In this document: positions 17,951 through 48,123 of the stretch, in pieces
Layout of the letters: every line of letters begins with the position of its first letter
Numbering within the stretch: the stretch's first letter is position 1
From: Sphagnum compactum
Lineage: Eukaryota
Length of the DNA stretch: 64,000 bases
Direction: 5' to 3'
NCBI GenBank assembly: GCA_965153455.1
Contig: OZ234493.1
Span: 7,368,213 to 7,432,212 of the forward strand
Program-made: the position numbers and the translations under genes
The notes under the pieces: model-generated
The model's input: the letters and a program-made list of their open reading frames with translations, nothing else
Told to the model about the DNA's origin: nothing
The model's database searches: none

Positions 17951-18909
17951 GGTACATACTTGTTCTCCTGCCTGGGTCTGTGTCTCAACCATCCGTCGCC
18001 GTAACTGGGTGGGAGACAAATCTCTCTGTGTCTCTGTGTCTCTATGTCTCTATTGCTGTGTGTGTCTCTCCAACACTCTCAATCTCTAGGTCTATATAAA
18101 TCCTGGACTGTGGACACAAATGGGTATCTCTCTTCTTGCACATTCGTCCGGCACCAACGAACAAAAACTCTTAATAAACACAGGTGCGGAAGATATGTCA
18201 CACGCTCGACTGACTCCTCTTCTTCTGACAAAAAACCCTAGAAAAAGAAAAAAGACCAAGACGCACAAGCGCACTCACACACACAATCTTCTATCCATTC
18301 GCCCCCCTCCTTATTTTTTGTGATTTTGCGAAAAAAGGAAACATGAAGAAGTAGCAGAAGAAGAAGAGGAAGCAGACATGACAACTTACATGGCGATTGC
18401 AACGGGGGGAGAAGGCAAAAAGCCTCCAGGAACGTCGATGGGTGCTTCAAATCGATCAAGCACTGGATACACCCATCAAGATGAGAAGCGAAAACAGCCC
18501 AAAAACAGTCGAAAAACTTGTTTAACAGCCACAAAAAAAGCCAAGAGATCGTCGCGATGTTTCGCTCCTCCTCACTTCGCTTGTTCCTCGTCGTCGTCTT
18601 CTTCTTCTCTTCGTCTTCTTCGCTTCTTCCAGAGTCCAGATACCTTCTGGCGTTTTGCGTCCCTTACCGCGCGGTGCATCACGCGGCAGCCGCACGGTTC
18701 ATTTTTGTTTTTCCCACAAAGAAGCAACTCTATGTGTGTCTGTGAGAAGGTCTAGGGTTCAAATCCCTGTAACTTTTAGGTTCCACTAGGGATCTTGCCT
18801 TTTTGGATGACATTTTCAAAAGATGATTCTAATATGAAATCTTTCAAAATTGAAGATTTTTTTTTTTGGGTCAATGTCTCTTTGTTGCAAAATGCTTGAG
18901 ATTCTCCCA

Positions 18910-19402
18910 TTTCATTGCTTCTTGTCCAAGCTCTTTTCTTCCAAGAGCAAATCATTCTAAGACCTCTTTAGTCGCTAATGTTTTCAAAGTATAATTGATA
19001 CATAGATTGTTGGAAAAACATGACCTTCAATCCCGTTTCTTTGCTTCTTGTCCAAGCTCTCTTTTTCAAAGAGCAAATCGCTCTAAGACCTCTTTAGTCG
19101 CTATTGTTTTCAAAGTATAATTGATACATAGATTGTTGGAAAAACATGACCTTCAATCCCGTTTCTTAGCTTCTTGTCCAAGCTTTCTTTTTCAAGACCA
19201 AAATCGCTCTAAGACTTCTTTAGTCATTAATGCTTCAAAGTATAATTGATACATAGATTGTTGGAAAAACATGACCTCGAATCCCATTTCTTTGCTTCTT
19301 GTCCAAGCTCTCTTTTTCAAGAGCAAATTGCTCTAAGATTTTTTTAGTTGCTAATGCTTCAAAGTATAATTGATACATAGATTGTTGGAAAAACATGACC
19401 TT
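18910..19402. repeat. Tandem repeat, ~125-126 bp x4
   Basis: The unit ttgcttcttgtccaagctct...gagcaaatcgctctaagacctctttagtcgctaatg...caaagtataattgatacatagattgttggaaaaacatgacc starts at ~18915, 19041, 19167 and 19292. Confidence 0.92.
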
Positions 19403-19884
19403 TAATGTTTGGTGGAAATATTTGGAGGCTTGTAGCACATATGAGCAATATGGACATTTCATTTGATGTTTTTTTAGGGTTGATTAGATGACTTAAATTT
19501 ATATTTACACTCTTTTGTCGCCAACATCTTCACCAACATGATGAGATTATGGATTTTTGTCACAAGATTTGGTTGGAGTTGGAAACATGTTTAAACTTAG
19601 TATGATTTTTTTCATCTTCATGTCATATCTTGCGATTCATTGTTTTTAATGTTTATTCTCCCCCTTTTCCCTCAATCTTGTGGGATTTTTTAGAGCCTGG
19701 TGATTCATAATGTGAAAAGAAAACACAAGTTGGAGTTCAACAACCCTTAATCACTTTACAGAATCATAAATACAAGTTTGTTGATACTGGGATCAATTTG
19801 AAAATAGGACTTTTGTGATTTATGTGATCACATTTTTGATGAATTCAAAAATGTTGTTTATTTAGTGTTGTTTTAATGAATGAT

Positions 19885-21299: not shown

Positions 21300-23550
21300 T
21301 TGCCTAAAGTTATTTGCCTAAAGTTATTTCGCTATAGGGTTATGATGTAATCACCATGTTTCATTACGAGCTCACATAATTTGTTATTAGTTGAAATAAT
21401 TTATTATAGTTAAATAGGTTTCTTTTGTGTTGTTGTTTTAAATACCTTAGGTTATCGTATCCTAAACTTTTATAGGTTATTTTATTTTGAGTTATTTTAA
21501 ATTTTATTTTATAATATTCTTAATTATTCTTGGTTATTCACCCTAAAGGGTGTAGGCATGGTCAAGTAGACAAAAAAGTAGTCCACCCAAAATGCAATTT
21601 AAAAATGACATTTTTTTATTATATAAACACATGAAAGTAAATGAAAAACTTGTGTAAGTAGAAATATGAAAAAACATGGCCCTCCATTTAGTTTATGGTA
21701 AGTTGAATACAAAATTTGTATGTGGATTATAACATGCATAATTTGATAGTACACAAGTATTTTCTAAGACTTTCATGATTTGAAAATGGAAAACATTCAA
21801 TATTTCATCTACTTGTAACCCATTTTATAAAATAGGACATTACCTGCAAGTAGATGCAATTTTGTAAAATATATTTAAATCTACATGAAAATGTTCATAT
21901 TTCAAATTATAATATCAAAGTGAAATTTTATCTTCATATTAATCATTGAATAAAATAATATTCCTACTATCAATGCATTAATTTTTTTTTATGTTTACTT
22001 ATTATTTTTTGTGACAAGTAACATTTTTTGTCTACTTGACCATGCCTACACCCTAAACTATTCCAAACTAGATTTTTTTCGTTATTCTAAATTATTCCAC
22101 CCTAATTTGTTTTCAGTTATTTAAGTTGAACCTTTATAAGTTATTCTATGTTATTTTAGGCTAGTTACTATAAGTTTTTATTGGTTATTTTAATACATTC
22201 CACATTAGGGTATCATGGGTTATTCTTGATTATTTTAAATTAATTTAAAATATTTTACTATATGTTATTTATAGGTTATGTAACCCTAAAACAATATTTG
22301 TGATTATTTATTCTAAGTTATTCCAAACCATTATGGGTTATTTTATCATAAGTTAATCTAGGTTGTAACCTTATGATAACTTAGGATGGAATAGCCTAAA
22401 ATAACCAACAATAACCTAAAGTAAAATATTTTATAATAACTTATAATAGCCTAGAATGAAATAACCTAAAATAATTTCAAGTGGAATAATTTAGAATAAC
22501 AAAAAAAAATCAAATCAAATAACCTAGAATATAATAAGGTGGAATAACAAAAATAACAAAAAAACAAAAAACCTAAAAGAACTTAGAATAACTAAAAATA
22601 ACCTAAGGTGCAATAACTTATAATAACTTTAAATAACAATAGGTATAATAATTTATAATAACATAAGGTGTTACAGTTGATAATAACCTAAGGTTAAATA
22701 GCCTAAAATAGCTGAAAATGACCTTATTTAAAAATAACCTTAAGTGGAAACAACCTAAAATAAAATAAAAACTCATAATAACCTAGGGTGGAATAACTTA
22801 TAATAACCGAAAATAGGCTAGGGTGAAATAACAATAAATAATAACACCAAGTAAAATACTTTCAAATAGTCTAAAATAACATAAGGTGGAATAAAAAGAT
22901 GATTGAGAATAAAATAAAATAAAAACCAATAATAACCCAAGGTAAAATAGCTTAAGATGGAATAATCTAAATATCCTAAGGTGAAGTAACTTAAATAACA
23001 TAGGGTGCAATAGTTTAAATAACTTAAGGTGGAATAATTTAGAATAATAAAAAATAAGCTAAAGTAAAATAGTCTAGAATAACATAAGGTAGACTAACAT
23101 AAAATGATAAATAATTGCCTAAAATAGCTTAAAATAGTTCAAAGTGGATTAATAAAAAATAATCTAAGGTGGAATAACCTAAAATAACAAATAATAGCTT
23201 AAGGTAAAAATAACAAAAATAACATAGGGTGAAATAATTTATAATAACTTGTAATAAGTTAGTTTAGAATAGTTGAAACCTCAAATAACCTCAAATAATC
23301 TAGCGTGAAATAATTTAAAATAATATATAATCGTTTACTTTATAAAACTAAAAATAACTTAACATAGCCTAGGGTGTAATAATTTAGAATCACCTAGAGT
23401 GGGATTTTTTTTATAATAATTGAAAATAACCTAGAATAGCCTAGAATGGAATAACCTAGAATAGCTTGGGGTACAATAACTTATAATAGTTTATAGTATG
23501 ATAAATTAGAATAACCAAAGGTGGAATAACTAATGGTGGAATAACTCAAT
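21300..23550. repeat. AT-rich degenerate microrepeat array (aataacctaa / ttaggttatt) with two arms in opposite orientation
   Basis: Units read ttaggttatt/ttattcc up to ~22365 and ggaataacctaaaataa from ~22370 onward. Confidence 0.75.
21548..22053. mobile_element. MITE (non-autonomous DNA transposon), 506 bp, 30-bp perfect TIRs, TAAA target duplication
   Basis: gggtgtaggcatggtcaagtagacaaaaaa (21548-21577) and its exact reverse complement ttttttgtctacttgaccatgcctacaccc (22024-22053); taaa on both sides (21544-47, 22054-57); AT-rich non-coding interior. Confidence 0.9.
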
Positions 23551-24820
23551 TAACTTTTAATTAACTTTTAGTTCAATTGTAATTACCCTTTAGTTAATTT
23601 TCAGTTCACTTTTAATTAAGTTTTAATTAAGTTTTAGTTCACTTTCAATTAACTTTTAGTTAATTTATGGTTGAATCTCAATTCCTTTAATTAAATCTTA
23701 GTTCACTTTTAATTAAATTTTAATTCATTATTAATTCCCACACGGATGAACATGGGCCACACATGGGTCACTCATGGATGAACATGGGTCACATGTAAGT
23801 TGATTTTAAATTTTTTTTTTTTTTTTTGAACTAGGTGTTCAATGGGTATAAATAAAAGTAGAATCCCATATTATTTTCAATGTGTTCAACACCAGTTTTG
23901 GGTATATTTTCTTGTCACAAACTTGTTTTATTCTTATTTTGTTTTTGTAATAAAATCTTGTTGGATTTTTGTTTTTATTTTGTTTGTTTCGCAATTTGAA
24001 ATTGAAATTAGGCCTACTTGTGTTTTCGTTTTGGTTTACGAAATCTTGTAGATTTGATTGTTTTCGTGCTTGTGATAGTAAAAGATCAAATGGAAAAAAA
24101 TGAAATGCATCATTTCTTGATGTATGAATTTCATATTTGTATTTTCATCACCATACAACAATCAATTTGAACATAATGAACAAAGGTTAGTGAAAAACAG
24201 TTCAAGCAACTAATGTTCATTTTTTTTAAAAGTTTGAAATTTTGTTAATTACATACAAATGATTACTTAGTGTAAGGTTGTTTCACAAAGCAAAGAAGGG
24301 GTTTGGATGAAATTTTTTTATGTTTATTTTTGGTGTGTTTGTTTTGTTCTTTTGTAACCTTTGTAGAAATTCTTAAAAGCCTTAATTTTTTTGACATTTT
24401 GGGAACTTTGTTAAGGTTAATGAAAATCATTTCAAGGAACTATTTTTCACGTGTTGTATGAAAGTCAATCATTGCTAATTATGTACAAATAACTATTTAA
24501 TTTGGGGTTGTTTCACAAGATAAGAAGGGAAGCAAGGATGTTAGCTTGTAATTTGAATATGGTTCTCAAGGTAGAGGAACAATTTTGCCAAGGTGGTCTC
24601 CCATTGTTGGACTAAAACACAAGGATTGAATGTAATTTTTTCATATTGTTTGTAGTTTTGTTTTGTTTTTTTGAGACTTTTTAAAAATTATGGAATGTCA
24701 TGCCCGTACATGGCTTCATACATGATGGCCAGTTACGGGCATGCCCATGTGTGTTTTAGGGTTGATGTATAGTCTTAGGCGACTGTACGCCATTAGATAC
24801 TTAGGATTTGTTGACGACGG

Positions 24821-24828
24821 TATAAAAG
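24821..24828 (+). promoter_or_regulatory. Candidate TATA box of the retroelement
   Basis: tataaaag ~125 bp inside the 5' end, followed by a pyrimidine-rich stretch. Motif match only. Confidence 0.4.
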
Positions 24829-25279
24829 GTCCAAACCTTTCTTTCTCCTTTAGTTTTTCTAGAATTCCTTTGTCAGGAGTTTTCTCCATCATAAGCTAGG
24901 ATTTCTAGATGCTCACGGCGGCCATTGCACGGCCACCGTCTACATACACTTCATTTCTTTCTTGCTTTGCATTTCAATTCTAGAAAAACTCTATTCCCTG
25001 TTGCTTCATGTTGAAAGCAACAGATTTCTTATGCTTTTGAAATTCTTGAGTTGTTGCTACTCGTGTTGTTGCTGTCGAAAGGAGCGCGTTACTACTGTTG
25101 CTACTCGTGTTGTTGGAGGGAGCTTTGCGTTTCTTACAACCAACCAAGAGCTTTGCGTTTCTTACAACCAACCAAGCAGGGACAAACGAAGTCGGGACAC
25201 TAGAGAGCAGGTGTCAAAACTTCTCTATTTCTCCCATTCTTTTTCGTTCTTCAAGTTGTCGGGTAAAAAAAAAAAAAAA

Positions 25280-25930
25280 ACGTTGCGAGTTGTAGCGCTG
25301 TCGGACATCGCAGCAACGCTCAGAGGCCCAGCGCGCTGCTGGACATCGCAGCAACACGCTACGAGGTCGAGCGCGCTGCGACGTCCAGCGCGTTGTTGGC
25401 CATCGCAGCAACGTTGCGACGTCCAGTGTGCTGCTGCAGCAGCGCCGCAAGAACGCTGCAAGCTGCAGTGCGTTGCCGGCCAGCGCCGCAACAATGCTGC
25501 GAGCTGCAACGCTCCCGGCCATCGTTGCAGCGTTGTGAGGAGCTGCAGTGTAGCGCCGCCGCCCGCCATTGCCGTAGCGGCGGCTGAGCTCTACACGTTC
25601 GACGTCCGACTTTCGTCGGATGTCCGTCGGATTTTCGTCCGACTTTCGTCGGACGTCCGTTCAACTTTCGTCCGTCGAACTTCCGTCCAACGTCCGGCCT
25701 GCGTCATTGCTGACGTCATCGTCCTGCGTCCGGCCTGCGTCACTGTTGATGTCATCGGCTTGCGTCCCTGCTGACGTCATCGTCATACGTCTTGCTTGTG
25801 TCATTGCTGACGTCATTGCCCTACGTCCTGCTGACGTCATCCACTTGCCGTCCTGTGCCCTGTTGTCTTGTCGACTTGACGTCCTACACCCACGTCCTGC
25901 CGCCTTGACGTTTTACGTGATACCGTAATG
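25280..25930 (+). repeat. CpG-dense microrepeat leader inside the retroelement
   Basis: Three successive unit types: catcgcagcaacg(c/t)tgcg..., gtccgactttcgtcggacgtccg and gctgacgtcatcg...ctgcgtcc. Far richer in GC and CpG than the flanks. Confidence 0.85.
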
Positions 25931-26118
25931 CAGTCCTGCCTTCTACACATTGTGGTCATGCATTTTGTGGTCTTGTGGTCTTGTGTCTTGTAGCTTATCT
26001 TGTTGCATTCTGCCGTACTACTGTCCTGCGATTAGGGAGATTCAAACCATACATTGTGTTAGAATTTTGTAATTGAGGGATTATATTGGTACAAAATTTT
26101 GGGGCATGGGACAACACC

Positions 26119-27425
26119 ATGTCCTCGGATGATGAAAGTAGCATTACTCATCCAGAGCCAAGGTATCAGTTACGAAGTAACACACAACCCTTTGAACCAA
26201 TATCTTTGAGTTCACGATCTTCACGACGGTACCACCAAACATCCAACAAGCTAGCCACGAATGGATAGAGGGAGATGAAGAAGAGATAGTTTACGCTCAA
26301 GCTACTGAAAGCTTGAGGGTGGTTCCTACTGACATTCAACATGGACCAAAGGTTTTACAAAGGTTCAAAGTAGCCCATAAGCCCTTGGTCAAAGCTTTGT
26401 CTAGTTTTGAAAGCATGGAGAGCCATGGCGAATTGATTAAGCCATTACTCCGTCAGCTAATCACCTGGACACCACCTAAGGAAGGGATTACATTACTAGA
26501 GTTCTTTGGTGTATTGGTACAGGTCTCGAAGCCCTACTACAGTCAGGGATGGTGGTTCGAAGGTATTTCTACGTAGACATTGATCCTATTGCAAGGCAAG
26601 TGGCAGCATCGAGAATGATGGAGCTCACAACCAGATTTCCACAACAGTTTACAACCACCGCATGGAAGGCCAGTTTCACTTTCTTGCCCCATGACATACA
26701 ATTAATTCAGAATAAGCATATGGAATTACTTGGCCCCGTGGACCTCATCATTTCAGGTTGGGAGTGTCAAGGATTTTCAGCAGCTGGATTTGGAGAAGGC
26801 TTGAGTGACACAAGATCCGGTCTCTTCACGGACATGGTACGATTGATCACCTGGGCTCAATCCATTTCCCCTACGCTTGGTTATGTAATTGAGAACACCC
26901 CTTCTTAGCTTGACCAGAGGGAGAAAGTCCAGGAGCACTACACACTTGTCAAACATTACCTTGGAGAGCCGCTCCTACTCGATGCGGCACAATGCGGTTC
27001 TTATGCGCACCGGCTGCGCAACTGGTGGACCAACCTTGCACCACTTTCAATTTTGCAGTTGGCTCTGAGATACACCATCAGAGACCACAACCTGCAGGTT
27101 TCTCACATATTGGATGATCAGAGCTCTTGCCAACCAGTTACAAGGCAAGATAAACCTCCTTGGTTTCCTGCGAATACAATAGGAAAACCAAGAGGTGCTT
27201 GGCCCACCTTTGTCTTTCCCTGGAGCACACGCCTTTCAGGGAGATGGACCAGGCTTGGTGTATCGTCGTGCTTCAGCCACTTGGGATGAACCAAGCCTAG
27301 AAGAAAGAGAAAGGGCTATGGGGTTCCAAACTGGCACTACTAGTCACACCAAGGTGACTAGATTGGAGCGTAACGCTCTACTGGGGAGAAGCATGGACCT
27401 GAACTCCCTTACATGGTTGTTGGTA
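26119..27425 (+). pseudogene. Retroelement-encoded C5 cytosine DNA methyltransferase domain (frameshifted, one premature stop)
   Basis: Joined frames give motif I LLEFFG/GIGTG (1-bp frameshift ~26510), II YVDID, IV DLIISGWECQGFS, DTRSGLF, VI YVIENT, a TAG at 26906, VIII SYAHRLRNWWTN, a frameshift ~27212, IX EERERAMGF and X RNALLGRSMD. Probable ATG at 26119. Confidence 0.9.
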
Positions 27426-27749
27426 ACCTGTGTACTCTTTCAAATGTACACAACACCAACACTGACTCAATCAGCTTGCAGCTCTGACGATGCAACCACA
27501 TGGCACCTCGACCAAGTACACTTGCCTATCTTCAACACTCTACATTTCACTCTCAGTGTTGGGGGGGAGGAGGTACCATGTAATTTGACTCAAGTTATGT
27601 CCAATACACCTAGAGGTACATCAGCTTCTGGAGAAACAATTACAACCTTCTACGAATCTACGGAGTTGGATAATGGAGAACCCAATACACCAGGTTCTTC
27701 AAACACACTTTCCAACTCCATTCCATGTGTTTCCAACTACCCTTTTGTT

Positions 27750-29150
27750 ATGGGGAACCAGCTCACCAAGAAGGAGAGAGACCATGTCACAGACTTGCTA
27801 ATTAAGTATGAGAATGTGTTCGCATTCTCAATGAAAGACTTAGGTAGGTGTAAGACCATGCAGTTCTCTATAGACCTTACAGATGAGACACCCGTCCATC
27901 GAAGGGGGCATAGGTTGAGCAAACATGAATGGGAATTGGTAGATGAAAGATGCAAAGAGCTCCATGAGGCCGGTCTCATTCAGCCATCAAGTTCTGATTT
28001 CGCAGTCGCTATAGTAATGCCAGCAAAGAAGAATTTAGCTGGATTATGGACTGAGAAAAGGATGTGCGGGGATTATAGGCCTTTGAACCTGGTTACACCT
28101 CAGGACAGGTACCCCATGCCCATCCCTGAAGAACTGTTTGATAGCATTAGAGACTCAAACATCTTCACAATTGTGGATATGAGGCAAGGCTTCAACCAGA
28201 TTGTGGTCGTTGCAAAGGATCGCAAGAAAACGGCATTCCATGGAAGCAACAAGTTGTGGGAATGGCTTGTGATGCCTTTTGGATTGAAGAATGCACCTGT
28301 CTTCTTTCAGCGAGTCATGGACCAGGTTCTCGAAGGGGCAGATTTCCTAAAATGCTACATAGATGATGTCCTAGTGCATAGCAAGGGATTCTTGCAACAC
28401 TTGGCTCATCTTGAGGAGTTATTCAAGAGGCTCCACGAAGTCAATATGAAGATCCATCCTAAAAAGTGTGAGTTTGCTGTCACCTTAGTAGTCTACCTTG
28501 GACATAGAATTTTGCCAAATGGTATTATGGCTCATTGGGCCAAAGTAGTAGCCATTTTGGAGATGCCCGATCCTACTGATGTTCACACTTTGAGGAGCTT
28601 CATCGGACTATGTAATTACTACAGGATTTATGTCCAAGACTTCAGTACTATTGCTCATCCTCTCTATGCATTGTTAAAGAAGATGTTGCTTGGACATGGA
28701 GTGAAGAGGCTCAGGAAGCTTTCAACACACTCAAGGAAAAGCTTTCAGAGTTCCCCATTCTGAGAAGACCTGATTTCAGCAAGGTTTTCATTCTACACAC
28801 TGACTGGAGTGCTCTTGGTATTGGTGCTGTTCTTGGCCAACTTGATGAGGATGGCAAGGAATATGTTATCGCTTATGCATCCCGAAGCAACAACAAGGCT
28901 GAGAGCAACTACTCTTCATACGAGGGGGAGTGTCTTGCTGTTGTATGGGCCGTCATACATTTCAGGCCCTATCTTTATGGCACTGAGTTCACTTTGTATA
29001 CCGACCACCAGCCTATCAAGTGGTTGATGACCAATGACAAGCTTACTGGTAAGCTAGCTCGTTGGGCGCTTATATTTCAGGAGTATGAGTTCAAGGTTAT
29101 TCACCGACCTAGTATTACACATCAGAACGCGGATACCATGTCGCGGAGAC
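27750..29150 (+). pseudogene. Gypsy-type reverse transcriptase and RNase H (frameshift ~28682)
   Basis: RMCGDYRPLN, DRYPMP, DMRQGFNQI, KTAF, VMPFGLKNAP, YIDD (28356), KKCEF, YLGH, LRSFIGLCNYYR; RNase H LHTDWSALGIGAVL, YEGECLAVVWA, YTDHQP, KLARWAL, NADTMSR. In frame with DNMT motifs IX-X within ORF 27195-28763. Confidence 0.96.
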
Positions 29151-29439
29151 CCCTCACTACCTTTGAAGATTTCTCAGAAGCCAGACAAGACTTCGACCAA
29201 ATTCCGGCTGTACATGTATCTTATGCATCTAGTTATCTTGCACTACTGCAATGTAACCTGGTTGAACATCCCATTTTGGATATATGGGAGGACTTGGACA
29301 CTTTGAGGTTTCTTCAGCATGGGGAATACCCTCCCCAAGTTACATCAAGTCAGCGGGATCGCATACAACAACGATCCAAACGCTACTCATGGAAGGACAA
29401 TCACCTCGTCCGATGCTTACCACAAGGCGACAGAGTGGT

Positions 29440-30500
29440 TCCACCACCGCATGAACAGCTTGGTCTTATTCAGAAGGTACACTCGGAGCTTGGACACTTT
29501 GGAGTTAAGCGTACTTATAGCCTTCTCGTTCCTCATTACCATTGGAGAGGTATGTATGCTCAAGTCCGGGACGTCATCGCTAGGTGTGAACAATGTGATA
29601 GAGTGAGAGCTTCCTTCTCCTCTCGACAGCTCACCCTTTCTCCACTACCTATTCAGGGCATGTTCTATCGTTGGTCATGTGATTTAGCTGGAGAATTACC
29701 ACAGACCTCCAGGGGTAATGTCTACATCATGATTATGATTGAGCATTTTTCAAAGTGGGTCGAACTTGTTGCGCTACCAGACAAGTCATCACACAGCACT
29801 AGCTAGGCTTTCTTACAACAGGTTCTAAGTAGGTTTGGGGCTTGTGCTGAGTGCCTTACTGATCAAGGATCAGAATTCAGGGGAGAATTCCAAGACCTAC
29901 TTGACCATGCTCTCATTGACCATCGTCGGACTTCAAGAGATCATCCCCAAGCTGATGGCCTTGCAGAAAGGATGGTTCAAACATGCAAGAAGGGACTTCG
30001 GAAGATTTGCCTCACTAAGAACAAAGAGGATTGGGACCTGGCCCTCCCTTACATCGCCATGGGTTACAGGATGTCCAAACACGCCTCTTTGTTTCATTTC
30101 TCCCCTTACTTTTTACTTTTTGGGAGACACCCCATTCCACTTTCTTCCATTACTGCTCAAATGCACCAGGTTGTGGACTTGGATTCCCCAGTCACTTGGG
30201 CTAGGGTCATTGCAGAAAGGGCTGCTTTATTCAGGAGGGTTATGCCCATGGCCATGGAAAACCTATCCATTGCACAACATCGAGACACCTTATGGTATGC
30301 ACACACACGAGGTGGCAGTTAAAAACCTAAGGTGAGACAATTTGATGTTGGTGATTTTGTGTATCTTCAGCGACAACCCAATGATACTTTAGACACTTCT
30401 TCCGGTCGCACTATCTTGAGGATTAAGGCGATCAGGCCTTCAGGTGTGTTGGAGCTACAAGGAGCTGACGGACGCACAATTCGGGATCATTCCAAAAATT
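29440..30500 (+). pseudogene. Integrase (HHCC zinc finger, DDE core, C-terminal region), with in-frame stops at 29804 and 30320
   Basis: VHSELGHFG...RCEQCDR; WSCDLAG, IEHFSKWVE, LTDQGSEF, HPQADGLAERMVQTCK; SPYFLLFGRHP; FDVGDFVYL. RT-RH-INT order is that of Ty3/gypsy. Confidence 0.95.
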
Positions 30501-30574
30501 ATGCGCCTTGCCACCTGCCAAACTTGGACCCTACCATCATCACGTCGACTTGGATTCCTCCACTTGATTATCCA

Positions 30575-30727
30575 TGTCAGGTATGTCAGAGGACGGACGA
30601 TGCTGATCAGATGCTGCTTTGCGACAACTGTAATGGTGGATACCATCTCTTCTGCCTCAAGCCGGAGCTCACTCAAGTTCCCGTTGGCAATTGGTACTGT
30701 TCATCATGTTCTCCTACAACACCTTGA
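30575..30727 (+). CDS. C-terminal PHD finger (C4HC3) of the retroelement polyprotein
   Basis: CQVC-x8-LLCDNC-x4-HLFC-x-PELTQVPVGNWYCSSC then TGA at 30725-27; same frame as the integrase C-terminus. Confidence 0.92.
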   Translation, partial: CQVCQRTDDADQMLLCDNCNGGYHLFCLKPELTQVPVGNWYCSSCSPTTP

Positions 30728-30768
30728 TTCCTACTCAGACCATGCCATGCTTTTCCCGGCTCAGGTCT

Positions 30769-31131
30769 GGGGGGGGGATATATGAGAATTTCATCTTAGC
30801 CTCACTTATGCATTGTATATATATGTGTGCATGCATCTCTTTTTAGTTGATTGGTTTATACATTTGACTGGCTTTAATTTTTTTGTTTAGTAAGATTTAC
30901 TCTGTATTTACATCCTTACGACACTGTACGTCACGACACTACACGTCACGACAGCATACATGAGAATTTCATCTCAGCCTCACTTGTGCATTGTATATAT
31001 ATGTGTGCATGCATCTCTTTTTAGTTGATTGGTTTATACATTTGACTGGCTTTAATCTTTTTGTTTAGTAAGATTTACTCCGTATTTACATCCTTACAAC
31101 ACTGTACGTCACGACACTACACGTCACGACA
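30769..31131 (+). repeat. Polypurine G9 tract followed by two near-identical 176-bp tandem copies (period 178) forming the element's 3' end
   Basis: G-run at 30769-30777; copies 30778-30953 and 30956-31131 (ata(t/c)atgagaatttcatct...cactgtacgtcacgacactacacgtcacgaca). Confidence 0.93.
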
Positions 31132-31679
31132 GGAATCCTAAAAATTCATGTTGAAGTTAAGATCGTTTAAGTTGAAATCATGTTTACATATTGTTGTTTT
31201 GTAAGATTTTGTGTTGATTGAGATGAGTAAACTAACATGTGCTTTTTTTTGAACCTTGTGATTGATTGGGATGAAGAATTTTAATCTTTTGAGCTTGAAG
31301 GTGGTTGTAGAAATTTTTGGAACTTTGTGATATATTTTGAAGCTTTGTTAAGTTTAATGAAAAACATTTCAAGGAACTAATCTTTATGTGTTGACAAAAG
31401 TCGTTAAATTATGTGCAAACAAACATTTAATCTAAAGTTATTTCACAAAACTATGTGTTTGTTTTGATTTAGCACATTATACCAATCTAGGATTATAGTG
31501 TCACTAGGATTTTTATTAAAGGAGGCAATAACAACTATAAGTTACAACCCTAAAATTTTAATCTATAGTTATCGATTTAGGGTTTGGAGTAGCCTTTGGA
31601 GTTAAAGTATTTGCAACACAAAAGGGTCAAAGATGTGATCATCTTGTGAAAGCTACCATTTAAAGGTCTAATCATGGTT

Positions 31680-31875
31680 AAAGGAATGGTAAAAAAACGA
31701 GCAATCATGGGTGAAGGAATGGCCAAAAATGAGCAATCCTATGTTAAGGAATAGCCAAAAATGAGCAATCCTATGTTAAGGAATGGCCAAAAATGAGCAA
31801 TCCTATGTTAAGGAATGGCCAAAAATGAGCAATCCTATGTTAAGGAATGGCCAAAAATGAGCAATCCGATGTTAA
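31680..31875. repeat. Tandem repeat, 32 bp x ~6
   Basis: Unit aaggaatggccaaaaatgagcaatcctatgtt. Confidence 0.92.
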
Positions 31876-32469
31876 TGAGTATGGAGTCGATCTAGTGATG
31901 TGACTCCTTTATGGCCATGGATGTACAAATTCAGGCTACACATTTTCAAATATTTCCCCTTTTTTCCCCCTTTGTGCTTAGAACAAACCATTTCTTAAAA
32001 AAAAAAGAAAAAGAAATCTGGCGATATTTATTTAGCCAGGAAAAAAGAAAAAGAAAAAAAGACTGATTGAAAGCTGATGTAGAAAAAATGGTGGTCATCA
32101 GTTGGAAGATTTAGCCAAATATAGCTATAAAACTGAAATAAAACTAAAATTTAATTTCATCCTTCTATATGTTTGGCTACACAATGAAAACCAAATATAT
32201 AAATATGATGATGACGACGGATAGATGATGATGATGATGATGATGATGATAATCATACTAATAATAATAATAATAATAATTTTCCCTCATTTCTGGCGAC
32301 AAAAAACCTCCCAAATCATTGTTTAAAAAAAAAACTCTTTTTGGCGAAACTTCGCCAGTAAAAGAAAAACCCGCTGGGATTCCCCCTGGCAACAACAAAA
32401 CACTCTTTGCGCACTCTCTGTTAGTGTGGTCTTGAACACATCGACGAATCGACGAGAACACACACAAGC

Positions 32470-35293
32470 ATGCTTCTGCAGCGTCTATGGCGGCTATGGC
32501 CGCAACAACAACCTCACTGCCTTCTTCGCGCCATCGCTAACAACGTCTCTTCTGCCTGCCAATCTGTGCTGCCTCACGAAGATACTGTACTCGGTGAGTT
32601 TTTCACAGTCATTAGTCTCAGCCTCTTTTAATTAATTAATTTTTTTAAAAAGAAAAAGCAATGTAGTCATGTGTTCTGGAGCAAACAACAAAAAAAGAAA
32701 GGTGAGTGAGTTTCTGTTTCCCTGTTAAGTTTTGATGTCCACTGTGTGACCAAAATTGCTTCTTGTTTTGCTTACTACTGTCTAAGAAGTTGTTCATCTT
32801 TAAAAGATGAAGGCAGTAGGTATAGAAGGTAGTAGAGAAGGGGAGTCGAAAAGTGTCTGAGGAATGTTGCACATTTCTTCCTTTCTTACATGTTGCTTGC
32901 TTCCTGCTTCTGCTCAATTCTGTTTCTAAGGACCTGGAAAGTTGTGTTGTGGCAACATGTAATGTTTCAGGCTTTTCAAAAAATAATTTAAAAAAAAATA
33001 ATTTAAAAAATATTATCATTATTATTTTCAAAAATAATTTTGAGTGCTTTAGATCAGTACCTATGTGTCAAATCTGGCAAAGTGAAGTAAGTTGAAGTAG
33101 TAGACTTCAGTAGACTTTTTTTAGAGTCAGAAATTTCTTGTTTCATGGCATCAAAACCCTCAAACGCATGATGGATGTGCATACATTTTGGATATGATGA
33201 CACTGGGTTGCTTGATTGCTATGCCCCATAAAGACCAAACCATCGGTGCTTGTCTGAGTCTGGCCATATCTTGTCATCAGCGTATTACAGTTGGCTAATG
33301 ATCTTTGATGCTCAACTACAAATGTGCAGATTCCAGAGCGTGTCGGGGGATTAGTAATGTTACTGCGAGTGCATTGAGACCATGGAGCTCCCATGCACCA
33401 TTGATTCACAGTTTGCAACGTATGTGGGCTCTGCAACCTGGATAATCAGAGCTCTAACATGTCACCTTCTCTTGATAGTCCATTCAATGTTTGACTGACA
33501 CTGCTTGTTTTCAAATTTGAGAATATTTTTCCATGAACTTGTTATATTTGTGCTCTCAGTGAATCTGTGAGATTGGAAGGGCTGAGGACTATAGTGACTC
33601 TTGACAGTATAGTGGGTGGTTCCTTCTCTGGACAGAACAGCAATTCAGCAGTTGGTGGTGACGGCTTCAGGGCCCGATAGACCAGGCATTGTAGCCAGGC
33701 TGTCAAAGCGAGTTCTTGAATGTGGAGGTAATGTGGCAGAGAGCCGGATGACAAGATTGGCTGGTGACTTTACCATTCTGATGCTAATCACATTTGATAT
33801 AGCGTAAGTCAGACCTCAATGTTTGTATCCTGTTTATTCACCTGTGTTGCCTGCTCATGCTCTTAGGTTCATGTATCTATGAATGTCACTCAGCTAATTC
33901 AGGGTTTAGGGTTTAGTCTTGCAATCCTCAAATGGGTTGTGTTTGAGTTGATGGCTATGGTGTGACAAAGGTGTCTGTTTCTTGAGTCACGAGCAGGGTT
34001 TTGTGCATAATGATGCACATTTGTGGTCTGGGTTTCCTGCTGTCATGGATTGCTCAAAGTTATGTACAGGTGTGTACAGAACAGCGCGGAAGGCAGAACA
34101 ACTGCGCAACTCTCTCTTAGAGATTGACGGTCTTCAGGTTGGTATTTGAAGTTCAATTGCTTGCCATACAAACTGTATTGTCAACCAGTGCTTGTGCATA
34201 TACAATATGCCTGGGTCACTGAACAGTTTGCAATATTGTTTGGAGAAGCTAGGGGTTTCAGTAGTGTTAAAAAGGAGGAAGAGCAATGTTCCACTTTGCA
34301 GCAATCTTATCGAAGTTATGGGTTTTTTCCAGGTTGGCACAAGATGGACATCTGATGAGCGCCTGAAAGAGACACAGCCACTTCGTAAGTTTCGAAAGAT
34401 TTTGCTGCGGGGTGCAGACAACCCAGGCATGTTGTGTCTGAACCCTTGAAGTTGCAGTCATTACCCTGTAAATGATGATATCTTTGCATTGCAGTGATGG
34501 AAGCAGAGCACTGATTTACATCAGATCATCACTGAGGCAATCTGCTCAATTCTGCTGTAATACCTTGGTTATAGGGTGTAAATTGCCTGCATACAGCTGC
34601 ATGCACCATTATCCTGCTTATCAATGTAGACAGCTATATTTGGGCTTGCTACTTGTTGTACCTTTCAATTCTGTTTCAAACCAGAGGGTGCAATTACGCC
34701 AAATGGGTACATCATCATTCATTTTGGTGCTCTGTGCTATCCTTGTGCAAGCCCTTGATTGAAAATGGTGAAGAGGAAGGTATGTGGATCCATCTCCTGC
34801 TAAGGTGCTTGTTATTTATCTGCAGCATGTGGGGAGGTGCAGGTCTTGTATACAATGTGACTGAGTATCTCTTTTCTCATGGTATCAACATTGAAAATCT
34901 GGAAACCCACACTGAACAGGTGCCAACAAGCCTTGACTCCTTGGGAGTAGTTGAATTCATCAAATTATTGAATATTCAAGATCTAATGCTGACAAATCTT
35001 CCTCCCTTGTTTTGCATATAAACTAAACTGCATGCTGACACTTTATATGCCAGCATATGTATGTAGTTTAGTTTCTGTGGGTGGGTATGACTAAACAGGC
35101 ACCATCTGGAGGAGCAACACTGTTCATGATGGCAGGAGTGATAGCAATGCCAGTGAGATTGTCAACACGCAAGCTTATTCACAACTTGGATACATTGCAA
35201 ACCACTCTGGGTGTGGATATTGCTATCTCCAACCTTCCTGTTTCTACCAGCTATAAGTTTCGGCTTCCTTCTCCACCTCTGGCTATTGTATAA
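32470..35293 (+). CDS. Double ACT-domain protein of GcvR (glycine-cleavage regulator) type with an N-terminal transit-like extension, multi-exon
   Basis: Exons read QQLVVTASGPDRPGIVARLSKRVLECGGNVAESRMTRLAGDFTILMLI | TARKAEQLRNSLLEIDGLQ | ...KILLRGADNPG | LVYNVTEYLFSHGINIENLETHTEQ | APSGGATLFMMAGVIAMP...TLGVDI...TAA 35293. The 5' exons (ATG 32470, MLLQRLWRLW...) are less certain. Confidence 0.8.
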
Positions 35294-36925
35294 TAAATGT
35301 ACCTGCAAGTATAGTGATGACATGTGGGGGTCAAGAAAATAGTGTTTTAGAATCAGAAGTCAAAGACGCTGGTTTCCTAAAACTCTTCAGGACAAGGTGA
35401 AATAGGGAATGGATCTCAACTTGCCTTGAACTGTCTTGGTAGATGGTGTCGAGGGAGAATGGTGTTATATTACAGTACTTGTCTAGAAATGTTGAGATTG
35501 GTAGAAGGTCAAGTTTGACTCGACTGGAAAATGCAGATCTACATCATAGATGGATGATGTATTGCTAATGTAGTTGTTCAGGTTTCAATTCCATGTTAGA
35601 AATTTCAGAAGTTGATTATACAGGGACAAGCTAAAATGAAATGAAGCTTACCATTGCAAGCTTGTTGCTGCTTGCATGAGTGTACTTTTTTGTTGACTAT
35701 GTTTCTTGAGTGCTAACCAGCATCACGACTGAGTCTTCCTGTCACCTCTGGAAATACAACAGAAACTGAAGAAGGGGAGTCAAGTGATGAAATGTTGGAC
35801 ATGCGGTTGCAGTGGTCCACAAGGACAAAGTGGTCACAGATTGTATACAATTGTTGGTTCATGAGGAAGGGGTGTAAGTGGGTATTGCAAACTGGTCACA
35901 GATTGTACAGGATTGTTGGTCCAGGAGGAAGGGATGTAACCGTGTATTGCCTAGTGACGGTGGATGGTCATGCCTGATATTTGTTTATGTACAGTGATCA
36001 AATTATCTGTTATTGGTTAATTTTTTAATGTTTTTCCTTGAAAAAACTTACTGCCATGCTCAAGATTGAAAACCCTTCGACATATGCATGAGGGATGAAT
36101 TGAAATTTCCCAAGGTGTCCTCTGGTCTCTTATGTGGCATGGAAGAGGATCGCTTCTGTTTATATGAGTCTCCACAAATTCAAGCAGCCATTTACATAGT
36201 TACCATCTTACAAATTTTGAAGGAATGATTATTGGAATTGACGAGGATTAGTATATTGTTCAGTTTACAGTTTTGCTTCACATGCAAGTGAGGGAATGCT
36301 TTAAGTTGAAAGTTTACCTTAAATTTTCTCAATTTCTTTTTGAAATAATATTGATGTTAAAGTGTTCTAGAAGGTTAGAGTTCACTTCTAAAAGGACCTA
36401 GTACCAACACGGTAATGAAGACGCTCTAAATCATGCCAAATCATGCAGATTTGGCCAGCATCAAAGTCTCTTACAGGAGGAGTAGGAGGAGGAAGAGGGC
36501 ATTTGTGATTGCAGCTCCCCAATGCTCAAGCTCCAGTGCTTGAGGATCGTAGGCAACCTGTCCAACAGGCTTCTACACCATCAAAACAACAAAGCTGTGA
36601 AGATGAATGTACTTCTCTACTTGTCAACAGTTTTTTCAAAAAGCTTCCAAACCTGAATAACAATTGATGCGTAAAGTCCATCTGCACCTTGCAGCAACAG
36701 CTTATTCAGTGTTTTTTATTCCAAGGGAACTATTTCCCTTTGTTGAATAAAGTGGGTTCTGCTATGGAGGTCTGCTCCCTAAAGTTGTTCCTTGGAAGTT
36801 GGACCCACTCCAGGCCCCAAAACTACAAAACCCTTTCTGCAGTCAAATCTCTAGACATAGGTGAAGAAGATTTCAGCTTCTAAATCTAAAGCTCATATTG
36901 TACAAACTCAAGTGTCTTACAGGAA

Positions 36926-39900
36926 TCATGAAAGGCGTTCCCTATGTGAAAGAGCAGTTACCAATTGCTGTAACCTGTTGACTTCAATGTTTCTAAGCTG
37001 GAGCTCGACATGGGCTTTGGCGAGTTCTAACTTTGCACAGTGCAACTCCTGAAAATGGCCACATGGACAAAGAACCTGATATCCACTTGGTAATATCCCA
37101 GCTGGTACCACTGTGTTTGGGACCCCACCAAAACTCTGAAATCCTCCAAAACCCCCACCCTGTAACATATGGACTCCAGTTGGAAGTGACAGTGCCCCAG
37201 GAAGTTCTTCAAACTTTCCACGTTTTGCAACCCTACTCTCATCCTCATTTCCTGGAAGTAGCCTTTTTCTGGAGGTGTCTATCATAGAATTCATCAATGA
37301 GGCATCTCCAAAGTCCCTGTTCTGCAGTTTCACAATGGGTGTTGTGAAATTCACCATCTTGCGAACCTGAATTTCAGCCCTCTTGGTACTGTTGTCCAGT
37401 GTCCTGACTGTCATGGCAACTGTCTTTTGTGGAAAACCAAACGAGTCCTAAAAAGAAACAGAGCACACAGATGTAACAATGTGTATCTTAATCCCAGACA
37501 CATTCCAATTGCATTCTCTTGTAATATCAAACTGCAATTTTTTTGTGATAACATAGGTCCAGAATCAGGTATCCTTATCCACATTGGGATCACCGAACAT
37601 AATAGTCAGGAATTACAGGTTCATTTCATACCTGATTTTTTTTTTCTGAACAGCATTATGTGAATTGCATATCATCACAAAGGGTAGTGAAACAGAATAG
37701 GGTTTAGACAAACAAATACCACAGCATGTAAGCCCTGTAACTGCTCAAATGCAGAATCTGCTTCCTCCCTGCTCCTGAAAACAGCATATGTGGAGCCTGT
37801 CTTGTGTTGACTTTTCACCGTAATTTCCTGTCAACATGAGATCCACAAACACAAGTTCTTTACCCCCTTGAATTATATATCATCTTGGGCTGTATAACAA
37901 TTTGTCTACTGCAAAAGTAAGGAGATTTGAGCAAAATGAGGTCCTGTATATTTAGTGCTAAATTCCCCTGATGCAAAGAACAAAGTCCAGTCCTTGCCAC
38001 AAACCATGTAGAATTGACAATAACAAACACCAAATTATCCAGCACATGAGAAAGGTGGTGAATAGAACCAACCTGGATTTCACAAGGAAATTCTGCTGTG
38101 AACAGAGTCTGTAAGTCTGAGACTGTCAAGAAATTGGGCAGCTTGTGCAAAAAGAGCTTAGACACTGAGTCTTTCTTCACCTGTAATCAGCAACACCACA
38201 TTACGATGCTGATGTTTCACCAGTATGAGTCCAAGAAACATTCTGGGCTCCTTAGACCCATTGGAATATCTAGTGCACTTACTGAAAACAGCCACAAAAA
38301 AGGGGAGAAAAAAGAACAAGAGCAAGACACTGGCAAGTCAAGAATCTAAAGGGTTTCTGAGCTCTACTTTGGAAAGTCACAACGTACCCTCTTGGACTGA
38401 GTAATATCATACTCCTCCAGGCCATGTTCAAGCCTATGCAAGACCAAGCGCATGGGAACAATAGCATCATCCAAACAGTTGTGAGGCTTTCCTTCCTCCC
38501 TGAAATCATATTGTAATACAGCCTGTTTTCCCCCAAAGGAATTTGAGAATGATCAACATAAGAAAGTCACATAAAACAATACAGTGAATCTGCTGACAGA
38601 AAAGTCCCAACAGACACCCAACGCATGTAGCACAATCAAGAAGAGATCATGCATCTTGCATGTCTATTGAGAGATCCAGAATTCCAACAGTAAAATTACC
38701 ATAGAAATCAGTAAGAAAAAATCAGCATGTACCTTACAGAGGTTGACAAGGCTGGGCAAGTGAGTTAATGCCCAAGTTCTCGGTTGGAATATAAATGCAG
38801 TGTCAATCACCCGTTGGTGATCAATTTTCAAAACTGACCACCAAAGCAAACACCATAATTAGATGTAGGCATGCATACAATAACCCTCATCACACTAATG
38901 TAGATCTGAAGTGGTCTATCCCTTTTTTCTGTTTAAGACCCGAAACCCTAAACCTGGGCAATTCTCACAGCATCAACAACCTTCTGTCAGACACCAACTG
39001 AGAAACATTCAACAGTATATATGTTGAGAATTTTCCTACTGGAAACCAGTGACACACAGTCTGTGGCAAGAGTCAAGAGTAACTGTACCACTTAAGTCAT
39101 GGTCCAAGCTGTGGCCCACAAGAATAGTGCCTGGACTCAGTATCTTCTTCACCATCCTCTGCCACTCAGAAGCAGCTCTCTTTTAGTTACAACATCTATA
39201 TTTGCACTCTCTGTCAGATTGCAGTTGCCAAACCCCTGAACCCAATGCTGGAAAATGACCTGGGCAACTCTTAAATAAGACAGTAACCTCTTTAGATTGT
39301 CAGCAGACCATAAGTCCTGAATTGATGCTGATAACAGACCTGAACAGCTTCTTGGGTAAGAGAGACTCCTTCTAGATCCTCAGCCTTGACTCCTGTGATG
39401 TGTGTGAGGTAATCCACCACCTTCTTATTTGGCAAGACAAGCTCATCAATCAATATCTGCATGCCACACCCAAGGCCATCATGATAAGTCTACTGTAAGC
39501 TCCCTTTCCAAACATAGTACATGATTAAAAACTAGAACATGGAATTCGACTGAAAATCTTGACCTGGATCAGAACTGGACTATGTGAAGCAGAGGAAAAA
39601 CAGGAAGTTCTGAGAATACATACTTACATCATAATTACAGTTAACTGCAAAAACAGTGAGTTCTGGGAATCTGTGCTTACATCGCAATTACGGTCAACTG
39701 CACAGATTTTCACAATCTGGGCTTCACCCCCTTCACAGTCCACCATTTCACAATCAAGAGAAATGATCCTTTCTGGAACATTGATTTTCCTTTCTCGCTT
39801 TGAAATGATCCACCCCTAACAATCACACCAAGTAGAAACTTTTTCAATTAGGGTTAGATTATGGTGATGATTCCACCATTTTGACAATGTGAGTCTGTAA

Positions 39901-47318: not shown

Positions 47319-47724
47319 CTACACTGCCTGAGCTGCCGCTTTTTCGATCTTGACACCTTTCCAGAACGCAACATAATCCTGCAAGTAAGGAAAAAACAAG
47401 AGGCAGATCATCACAACCCAAGTCTCAAAAACACCTCCAATGAGTGTGAGAGAGTTTTTCTTTTCAGTAGATTTTTACCTTGATGTTGGAGGCAGCCGGC
47501 TTGGGCGCAGGGTAATACCAAGCTGCATCCTTGTTCTCCTGCCCATCAACCACCAAGGTGTAATAAGAAGCCTGGCCTTTCCAAGGACAGCTGGTGTTGG
47601 TGGAGCTCGGCTTCACGTACTGCATGTTCACAGATGAGGGTGGGAAGTACACGTTGCCTTCCACACTTTCGTATGTATCAGTAGCTGCAATCACAGCTCC
47701 ATTCCACACTGCCTTTGTTGCCAT
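47319..47724 (-). CDS. DUF427 (NTP_transf_9) family protein, 2 exons (47479-47724, 47319-47378)
   Basis: KAVWNGAVIA...VEGNVYFPP...TSCPWKGQASYY...NKDAAWYYPAPKPAASNIK | DYVAFWKGVKIEKAAAQAV*; GT-AG intron. Confidence 0.92.
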
Positions 47725-48123
47725 TTTACTTTGTTGCTCGCTCTACTTGTGCCCAGAAAAAAATTGTTCGAGGATTGATCGATCGATCCACCCACAACAC
47801 TGCTGCTGCTGTTGCTACTACTAGCTCTTCCCTTTTTTCTCTCAAGATTTAGTAAGCAAACCCTAAACCCTAAATCTTGTGAAGAAGAAACAAGCTAGCT
47901 ATGTTTGCAACGACGAACCCAACTCGAGAAAATGCTTGATTGAGATCTTATCTACAGCCACCAGTTTTTTTCTTCTTCAGCAGCAGCGACTGGGCCAACA
48001 ATTTCGGCATCAAATTCAATTTCGTGTCCGTGGGTTTTTCGTCGGAGAACTACTATTTTTGTAGGGTTAGAAGAGCAAGCGTAACCACCAGCAGTTCCAC
48101 CTACATTATTGTTGTTACATCTA

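What the first reader, a model, noticed from the sequence alone, without database searches (positions are those of the whole stretch)
30332..30727. PHD finger at the integrase C-terminus: chromatin reader and DNA-methyl writer in one mobile polyprotein
Seen: an intact C4HC3 PHD sits where chromoviruses carry a chromodomain. It has an acidic residue just before the first Cys (LDYPC) and an LLCD core. Known: PHD fingers read histone H3 tails, those with this layout (AIRE/BHC80 type) often bind unmethylated H3K4, and DNMT3 enzymes use a PHD-like ADD domain for the same purpose. Inference: the PHD may steer integration and/or methylation to H3K4-unmethylated chromatin, a convergent DNMT3-like logic. 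This copy sits in a gene-free, repeat-rich interval, which is consistent with that idea.
Basis: partly seen in the sequence, partly recalled or inferred. Interest (0 to 1): 0.72.

Follow-up and report, generated by a model that had tools for sequence, protein, structure and literature searches.

The report
PHD finger on moss retrotransposon integrase
A dead copy of a recently active peat-moss jumping gene has an integrase that ends in a conserved histone-reading finger, probably used to dock on chromatin away from active genes; the same element also carries a DNA methyltransferase, but the two parts look separately employed and the element type is already known from algae.

Summary
The PHD finger is real (30575-30709, Pfam E=3e-13) and follows the integrase's SH3-like barrel. 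This copy is dead: it has stops, frameshifts and lacks Gag/protease. Six sibling copies keep one 2469-aa Gag-PR-DNMT3-like-RT-RH-IN-PHD frame and are 99.2-99.96% identical. The element matches KnitGypsy-Dnmt3 (split direct repeats, DNMT3-like domain in Pol). The PHD is under purifying selection (p=0.003) and sits in 97 of 115 own-genome copies and 31 of 35 distant relatives. None of 132 relatives has the methyl-K4 tryptophan, while the H3 A1/R2 pocket is conserved. It resembles BAZ/KDM5/ATXR5 fingers more than AIRE/BHC80. The DNMT3-ADD analogy is weak: the PHD always stays on integrase, while the DNMT moves or is lost. The interval is not gene-free; a host gene starts about 1.3 kb away. Young copies are scarce in gene-body-like DNA and about 2.5-fold enriched near chromosome ends, with no heterochromatin excess, and selection could explain the gene avoidance. 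Best reading: an integrase tether to unmodified H3 tails. H3 binding is inferred, not shown. The scan reported this family three times before in this genome.

The parts
24692..24695 (+). 4-bp target-site duplication, left copy (right copy 31132-31135)
   Evidence: 7 of 7 elements examined there have a 4-bp TSD and TG...CA ends
24696..24978 (+). 5' terminal repeat A of a split-direct-repeat end (A...B-A-B in full-frame copies)
   Evidence: 81% identity to repeat A of a full-frame copy
26119..26244 (+). start of the polyprotein ORF, followed by a deletion of ORF residues ~43-973 (Gag, CCHC knuckle, protease)
26474..27516 (+). DNMT3-like cytosine methyltransferase domain, broken in this copy (frameshifts, stop at 26906)
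   Evidence: intact sibling: Pfam DNA_methylase E=8e-8, best PDB match DNMT3A E=5e-9; breaks
28050..29087 (+). reverse transcriptase and RNase H (frameshift between them)
29441..30322 (+). integrase zinc-binding and DDE core; stops at 29804 and 30320
   Evidence: fold matches PFV and Ty3 integrase
30341..30514 (+). integrase C-terminal beta-barrel (SH3-like)
   Evidence: strands in model residues 318-368; coordinates; SH3-like label recalled from retroviral integrase CTDs
30575..30709 (+). C4HC3 PHD finger of the BAZ/KDM5-PHD1/ATXR5 type; no methyl-K4 Trp; H3 A1/R2 pocket residues present
30769..30777 (+). polypurine (G) tract before repeat B
   Evidence: sequence
30778..31131 (+). 3' repeats B-gc-B; the internal copy of repeat A found in full-frame siblings is precisely absent

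Best explanation
This is a decayed copy of a young Ty3/Gypsy family of the KnitGypsy-Dnmt3 kind in a Sphagnum genome. Shown: the PHD is the last domain of the integrase, is conserved by selection, and has stayed with integrase from chlorophytes to bryophytes. Inferred: it binds the free N-terminus of histone H3 (A1, R2, and K4 when unmethylated or little methylated) and tethers the integration complex to nucleosomes outside H3K4me2/3-marked gene starts, a job analogous to the chromodomain of chromoviruses. Inferred: the DNMT is a separate module, probably cut away by the protease, that acts on the element's own cDNA or new copy and is not regulated by the PHD.
For: PHD downstream of 97 of 115 family-1 DNMT loci, and of 43 of 44 at >=90% identity (from 150 scored candidates of 440 and 258). 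PHD in 31 of 35 distant DNMT-bearing polyproteins found with the DNMT alone. In 45 copies, variants shared by >=4 copies are 13 silent: 6 replacement against 3: 16 for singletons (Fisher p=0.0025). In 132 relatives: Trp two residues before the His 0, Asp after the third Cys 123, Pro and Gly before the last Trp 115 and 106. These match ATXR5 D41, P60 and G62, which hold H3 R2 and A1 (PMC5499861; mapping inferred from the ungapped 47-residue match). The window copy has Asp five residues before the third Cys, the 'acidic wall' position that is nearly exclusive with the methyl-K4 Trp (PMC5415848; DPF2 has Asp at the same spacing). The PHD stays on integrase while the DNMT moves or is absent. Flanks of 46 copies are gene-body-like (CHG o/e >=1.0) in 7 of 46 against 14 of 40 random stretches (p=0.045). 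Copies >=90% identical lie within 1.5 Mb of a chromosome end 17 of 47 times against 7.4 expected (KS p=0.019; DNMT-based set 16 of 39 against 6.1, KS p=0.005); older copies are uniform.
Against: No binding was measured. The residues that would reject methyl-K4 are variable: acid three before the first Cys in 70 of 132, acidic wall in 53 of 132, and the second family in this genome has neither (6 PHDs). Flanks show no significant excess of strongly CHG-depleted DNA (13 of 46 against 6 of 40, p=0.19) or of repeats (p=0.27-0.45); seven flank measures were tried without correction, and the thresholds were chosen after seeing the data. Gene avoidance is expected from purifying selection in a haploid moss. 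The window copy sits 1.3 kb from a gene start. Only 31 of 123 human PHD constructs bound H3 on arrays (PMC6979384). In ATXR5 the PHD matters more for cofactor binding than for nucleosome binding.
Confidence: 0.55

Rival explanations
1. Generic nucleosome tether: the PHD grips H3 A1/R2 but does not discriminate K4 methylation. It raises integration efficiency or chromatin retention, and the scarcity in genes comes from selection.
For: A1/R2 pocket residues are far better conserved than the K4-side acids; family 2 lacks the acids; no heterochromatin excess in flanks; older copies are spread evenly.
Against: The nearest solved relatives that were read up (ATXR5, BAZ2A/B, KDM5 PHD1) prefer unmethylated K4, and ATXR5 does so with main-chain carbonyls, so side-chain acids are not required. 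Young copies are unevenly placed along chromosomes.
Confidence: 0.25
2. DNMT3/ADD-like coupling: the PHD senses H3K4me0 and directs or switches on the element's DNMT3-like enzyme at the insertion site or on host chromatin.
For: Both domains share one ORF in intact copies. The DNMT is DNMT3-like with its catalytic Cys kept in 36 of 36 aligned sequences. In most algal relatives the order is RH-DNMT-IN-PHD, so one mature DNMT-IN-PHD protein is possible there.
Against: In this family DNMT and PHD are separated by RT, RNase H and integrase, with a protease domain present. PHD persists in full polyproteins without a detectable DNMT (P0087, P0104). The Klebsormidium enzyme showed no activity in yeast, a result the authors call inconclusive, and they favour cDNA methylation (PMC5890265).
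Confidence: 0.12
3. Non-histone role: the finger binds a host or element protein or nucleic acid (a structural or adaptor zinc finger).
For: Many PHDs did not bind H3 on arrays; ATXR5 PHD also binds its own SET domain.
Against: Selective conservation of exactly the H3 A1/R2-binding positions across green plants.
Confidence: 0.08

Closest known systems
KnitGypsy-Dnmt3 / streptophyte Gypsy-DNMT3 (de Mendoza et al. 2018, PMC5890265; passages, parts 3-4 of 7 and a supplement search read; figures not visible)
   Same: Gypsy domains, DNMT3-like domain inside the Pol ORF, DIRS-like split repeats. A Klebsormidium nitens integrase with C-terminal PHD (P0038, 55%) falls in the same clade (support 0.99).
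   Different: The text never mentions a PHD (0 hits in main text and in 3 held supplements); Fig. 4c may draw it. Here the family is in a land plant, with at least 120 copies and very young members.
Chromoviruses (integrase C-terminal chromodomain, e.g. MAGGY; Gao 2008 known only through citing passages)
   Same: A chromatin-reader domain after the integrase C-terminal barrel; likely insertion tether.
   Different: No chromodomain; a PHD would read the absence of K4 methylation, not K9 methylation; non-standard terminal repeats.
PHD-bearing Chlamydomonas Gypsy elements: Gypsy-7a_cRei and REM1 (bioRxiv 2022.06.16.496473, passages; REM1 paper not read)
   Same: PHD in a Gypsy Gag-Pol; intergenic insertions 2.6-fold enriched, with targeting versus selection unresolved.
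   Different: No DNMT reported in the passages read; ordinary LTR layout.
EpiLTRs / DAM-LTRs (bioRxiv 10.64898/2026.05.21.726589; passages and section 7 read, supplements not seen)
   Same: Reader plus DNA methyltransferase(s) in one LTR retrotransposon.
   Different: Their reader is a chromodomain and their DNMT is DNMT4-related; no PHD finger is mentioned.
ATXR5, BAZ2A/B, KDM5 PHD1, WSTF PHD fingers
   Same: Best sequence matches, same loop length, A1/R2 pocket, no methyl-K4 Trp.
   Different: ATXR5's second R2-binding Asp (after the fourth Cys) is Asn here (inferred mapping); host proteins, not mobile.

Membership tests
PHD finger | C4-H-C3 zinc ligands with Trp before the last Cys pair; Pfam PF00628 above cut-off | tested here: met
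   (50 bits vs 24)
H3K4me3-reading PHD (ING/BPTF type) | conserved Trp of the aromatic cage | tested here: not met
   Gly here; Trp in 0 of 132 relatives. The cage Trp is; its position two before the His is recalled.
Unmodified-H3 readers, BAZ/KDM5-PHD1/ATXR5 type | Asp after third Cys, P-x-G before last Trp, acidic wall | tested here: met
   all present in window copy; 123, 115/106 and 53 of 132 relatives
Unmodified-H3 readers, BAZ/KDM5-PHD1/ATXR5 type | measured binding to H3K4me0 over K4me3 | not testable with these tools
   needs ITC or a peptide array
AIRE/BHC80-type PHD | Asp two residues before the first Cys (recalled); shorter first loop | tested here: not met
   Asp is three before, Tyr two before; AIRE and PHF21A rank well below BAZ/KDM5/ATXR5 and align with a shorter loop
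KnitGypsy-Dnmt3 kind | Gypsy Pol domains with DDE integrase | tested here: met
   4-bp TSD in 7 of 7 and 10 of 11 evaluable, 13 examined
KnitGypsy-Dnmt3 kind | DNMT3-related domain within the Pol ORF | tested here: met
   (by best PDB match, not by a DNMT tree)
KnitGypsy-Dnmt3 kind | DIRS-like split direct repeats | tested here: met
   A...B-A-B in 6 of 6 full-frame copies
KnitGypsy-Dnmt3 kind | direct sequence kinship with the published element | tested here: inconclusive
   K. nitens integrases P0038 and P0113 cluster with it, but their link to a DNMT was not checked
Chromovirus | chromodomain at integrase C-terminus | tested here: not met
   no Chromo hit at E<=1 in the full ORF; 1 of 8 relatives scanned has a weak Chromo after the PHD (P0020)
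Chromovirus | RT phylogeny within the chromovirus branch | not tested
   no reference set of chromovirus RTs was on hand
DNMT3 ADD-like regulation | reader adjacent to and in the same mature chain as the catalytic domain | tested here: not met
   about 1000 residues and three enzymes lie between them in this family; cleavage itself not testable; possible in algal RH-DNMT-IN-PHD forms

The most novel reading that the evidence does not exclude
A green-plant-wide Gypsy lineage uses an integrase-borne PHD to land on H3K4-unmethylated nucleosomes and couples this to its own methyltransferases. The coupling would be most direct in algal members, where one chain may join DNMT3-like, integrase, PHD, Tudor and a DAM-like adenine methyltransferase, so that new copies are pre-marked at a chromatin-selected site: a mobile, convergent version of DNMT3's K4me0 logic.
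Probability: 0.15. Interest if true: 0.75.

Novelty: new variant of a known kind. Interest (0 to 1): 0.42.

Why it matters
Chromodomain tethering is the one well-known way in which Gypsy elements read histones. A PHD in the same slot, kept from chlorophytes to bryophytes, would show a second route: reading the absence of an active mark. This family has at least 120 copies, some 99.9% identical, in a chromosome-level moss assembly, so insertion sites can be compared directly with H3K4 and DNA-methylation maps. That makes the open question of why retrotransposons carry PHDs and DNMTs testable in a land plant. The element type, PHD-bearing Gypsy elements and reader-plus-writer retrotransposons are each already described, which caps the surprise.

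Tried and rejected
Complex prediction of the PHD (63 aa, 2 Zn) with the host's own H3(1-30): verdict 'no answer', score 0.33 against a mark of 0.34, controls 0.00-0.02; not used for or against binding. Expression: contigs of 4 moss/plant metatranscriptome runs cover nearly the whole element, including the PHD. They are short, diverged, rich in C>T/G>A changes, two runs look like one data set, and no silent control was laid, so transcription is not shown. Enrichment on small gene-poor chromosomes: C19 has 5 of 120 (1.5 expected), C20 0 (1.0 expected); weak and inconsistent. Heterochromatin targeting: no significant excess of strongly CHG-depleted or repetitive flanks. Sequence-specific target site: none in 38 junctions. 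A form with the B-A junction at the 5' end: 39 of 40 scored junction matches lie at the 3' end of a listed copy, one has no listed PHD beside it (317 candidates). A residue-level alignment to ATXR5 could not be displayed, so that mapping is inferred from spacing. Literature searches without a paper describing PHD plus DNMT in a Gypsy element or this family in Sphagnum: (open-access library only; Repbase, theses and figures not covered). REXdb paper: 0 hits for PHD or methyltransferase (PMC6317226). In one search variants seen in 2-3 copies were left out; split matches were collapsed (148 of 150 PHD rows and 129 of 150 listed DNMT rows entered).

Full report
Observation. The frame 30323-30727 encodes the tail of an integrase followed by a complete C4HC3 PHD finger at 30575-30709 (Pfam PHD E=3e-13). 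Upstream lie integrase, RNase H and RT and a broken methyltransferase. This copy is dead: stops at 26906, 29804 and 30320, several frameshifts, and loss of ORF residues ~43-973. The element runs 24696-31131 between 4-bp target-site duplications. The host is a Sphagnum moss: a neighbouring exon matches a Sphagnum-labelled protein at 100%.

Context. The interval is not gene-free. An ACT-domain gene begins about 1.3 kb after the 3' end, ENY2 lies about 7 kb before the 5' end, and AFG1-like, exonuclease and DUF427 genes are in the window. DNA from 32 to 48 kb has a gene-body-like signature, CHG kept and CpG depleted (this reading of the ratios is my inference).

Family. The PHD region has 150 matches among 150 scored of 440 candidates in the own genome. 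About 120 loci form one family and about 28 a second at ~45% identity. Six copies have an open 2483-codon frame, 99.2-99.96% identical to each other, with terminal repeats 99.7-100% identical within a copy, so the family moved very recently. One natural intact copy encodes 2469 aa in the order Gag region, protease, DNA methylase, RT, RNase H, integrase, PHD, with no chromodomain. The methylase is closest to DNMT3A (E=5e-9). The ends are split direct repeats, A...B-A-B, in 6 of 6. That is the layout reported for KnitGypsy-Dnmt3 of Klebsormidium (PMC5890265), whose text and held supplements do not mention a PHD (figures not visible).

The PHD is a fixed, selected part. 97 of 115 family-1 DNMT loci have a PHD match downstream, 43 of 44 among the youngest. 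Searching with the DNMT alone found 35 long polyproteins, 31 with a PHD; the named ones are chlorophytes. Searching with integrase tail plus PHD found 194 proteins (120 listed), including Calypogeia, Sphagnum, Marchantia, Klebsormidium, Volvox and Pleodorina. Among 45 copies compared with one intact copy, 31 keep all ligands without stop or gap. Variants shared by four or more copies are 13 silent to 6 replacement, and singletons 3 to 16 (p=0.0025); the adjacent integrase tail behaves alike.

What it may read. The best solved matches are WSTF, KMT2C/D, CHD4, KDM5 PHD1, ATXR5 and BAZ2B; AIRE and BHC80 rank lower. In 132 of 152 relatives that fit a PHD pattern, the methyl-K4 Trp position is never Trp (Gly in 118), Asp follows the third Cys in 123, and Pro and Gly precede the last Trp in 115 and 106. 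In ATXR5 the equivalent Asp41, Pro60 and Gly62 hold H3 R2 and A1, and K4 is held by main-chain carbonyls in a narrow pocket (PMC5499861 passages; mapping inferred from spacing). The window copy also has the 'acidic wall' Asp, a feature nearly exclusive with methyl-K4 reading (PMC5415848 passages). Against a strict K4me0 rule, the acid before the first Cys is kept in only 70 of 132, the acidic wall in 53 of 132, and the second Sphagnum family has neither. No binding was measured.

Reader-writer coupling. The model places the PHD after a beta-barrel on a PFV/Ty3-like integrase (pLDDT 83). Among 152 relatives the PHD, where present, always follows integrase. The DNMT lies between RNase H and integrase in most algal forms, before RT here and in P0045, and is undetectable in two full protease-to-PHD polyproteins. 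With about 1000 residues between them and a protease domain in the ORF, the two domains are probably separate mature proteins here (inference from Gypsy polyprotein processing, recalled). The Klebsormidium DNMT gave no activity in yeast, called inconclusive by the authors, who favour cDNA methylation. The ADD analogy is therefore weak for this family and more open for the algal ones.

Insertion sites. 3' flanks of 46 copies were compared with 40 random stretches. CHG observed/expected was lower (0.56 against 0.68, p=0.03; first kb 0.46 against 0.63, p=0.008), while GC, CpG, ORF content and repeat share did not differ. The shift comes from fewer gene-body-like flanks (7 of 46 against 14 of 40), not from significantly more heavily depleted ones (13 of 46 against 6 of 40, p=0.19). 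Copies of 90% identity or more are enriched within 1.5 Mb of chromosome ends (17 of 47, 7.4 expected; the excess holds at all five thresholds tried), and older ones are not. Sphagnum gene density is reported as largely uniform (PMC9946827 passages), so the end bias is not simply gene avoidance, but its chromatin basis is unknown. Gene avoidance fits targeting or selection equally, as noted for Chlamydomonas Gypsy-7a_cRei.

Novelty. PHDs in retrotransposons are called widespread (PMC6673714; bioRxiv 2021.11.30.470311). Gypsy-DNMT3 has been known since 2018, and chromodomain-plus-methyltransferase EpiLTRs are in a 2026 preprint. My searches found no text describing the PHD-DNMT3 pairing or this family in Sphagnum; figures, Repbase and preprint supplements were not seen. 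The scan itself reported the family three times before in this genome. Verdict: a real, conserved integrase-borne reader and a variant of known kinds, most likely an H3-tail tether (0.55); interest 0.42.

Noticed in passing
P0001-P0035, tails after the PHD (e.g. P0009 residues 1770-1990, P0027 2352-2407): Many algal relatives continue after the PHD with a Tudor-like domain (Pfam PTM_DIR17_Tudor E=4e-5 in P0027) and a DAM-like amino-methyltransferase (Pfam MethyltransfD12 E=0.0035 in P0009; Atlas N6-Mtase/MTS clusters at 0.94; motif in 31 of 132). That gives RT-RH-DNMT3-IN-PHD-Tudor-DAM, a dual-methyltransferase layout not described in the EpiLTR passages I read.
   Followed up: partly
window 30778-31131; L051-L090; L021 8500-9231: The 3' end is modular. 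Full-frame copies end B-gc-A-B, 17 of 40 other copies end after one B (4-bp TSD in 9 of 10 evaluable), one has three B units, and the window copy has B-gc-B with A precisely missing. The B-A junction is a 10-bp palindrome that looks like a circle junction with two spacer bases; the replication route is unexplained.
   Followed up: partly
P0037 (Calypogeia fissa) against L021:7706-8515: The liverwort protein is 83% identical to the moss integrase-PHD, far above Marchantia (53%) and Klebsormidium (55%) relatives, and groups with it: possible horizontal transfer between peat moss and a leafy liverwort.
   Followed up: no
G000 chromosome ends: Young copies are about 2.5-fold enriched in the last 1.5 Mb of chromosomes; old copies are not.
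   Followed up: partly
L144-L150: A second, older DNMT+PHD family (~45% identity), all seven sampled copies broken, with split repeats seen in several and a PHD lacking the acidic residues; its PHD closely resembles Marchantia Mp_7g09570 (P0059).
   Followed up: partly
window 22000-23740, 18905-19406, 31661-31910: AT-rich minisatellite-like arrays (25-, 11-, 126- and 32-bp units) flank the element.
   Followed up: no
window 4803-6733, 16957-17851, 32470-35300, 36926-37447, 47464-47742: Host genes: AFG1-like ATPase, ENY2, ACT-domain protein, PF00929 exonuclease, DUF427.
   Followed up: partly
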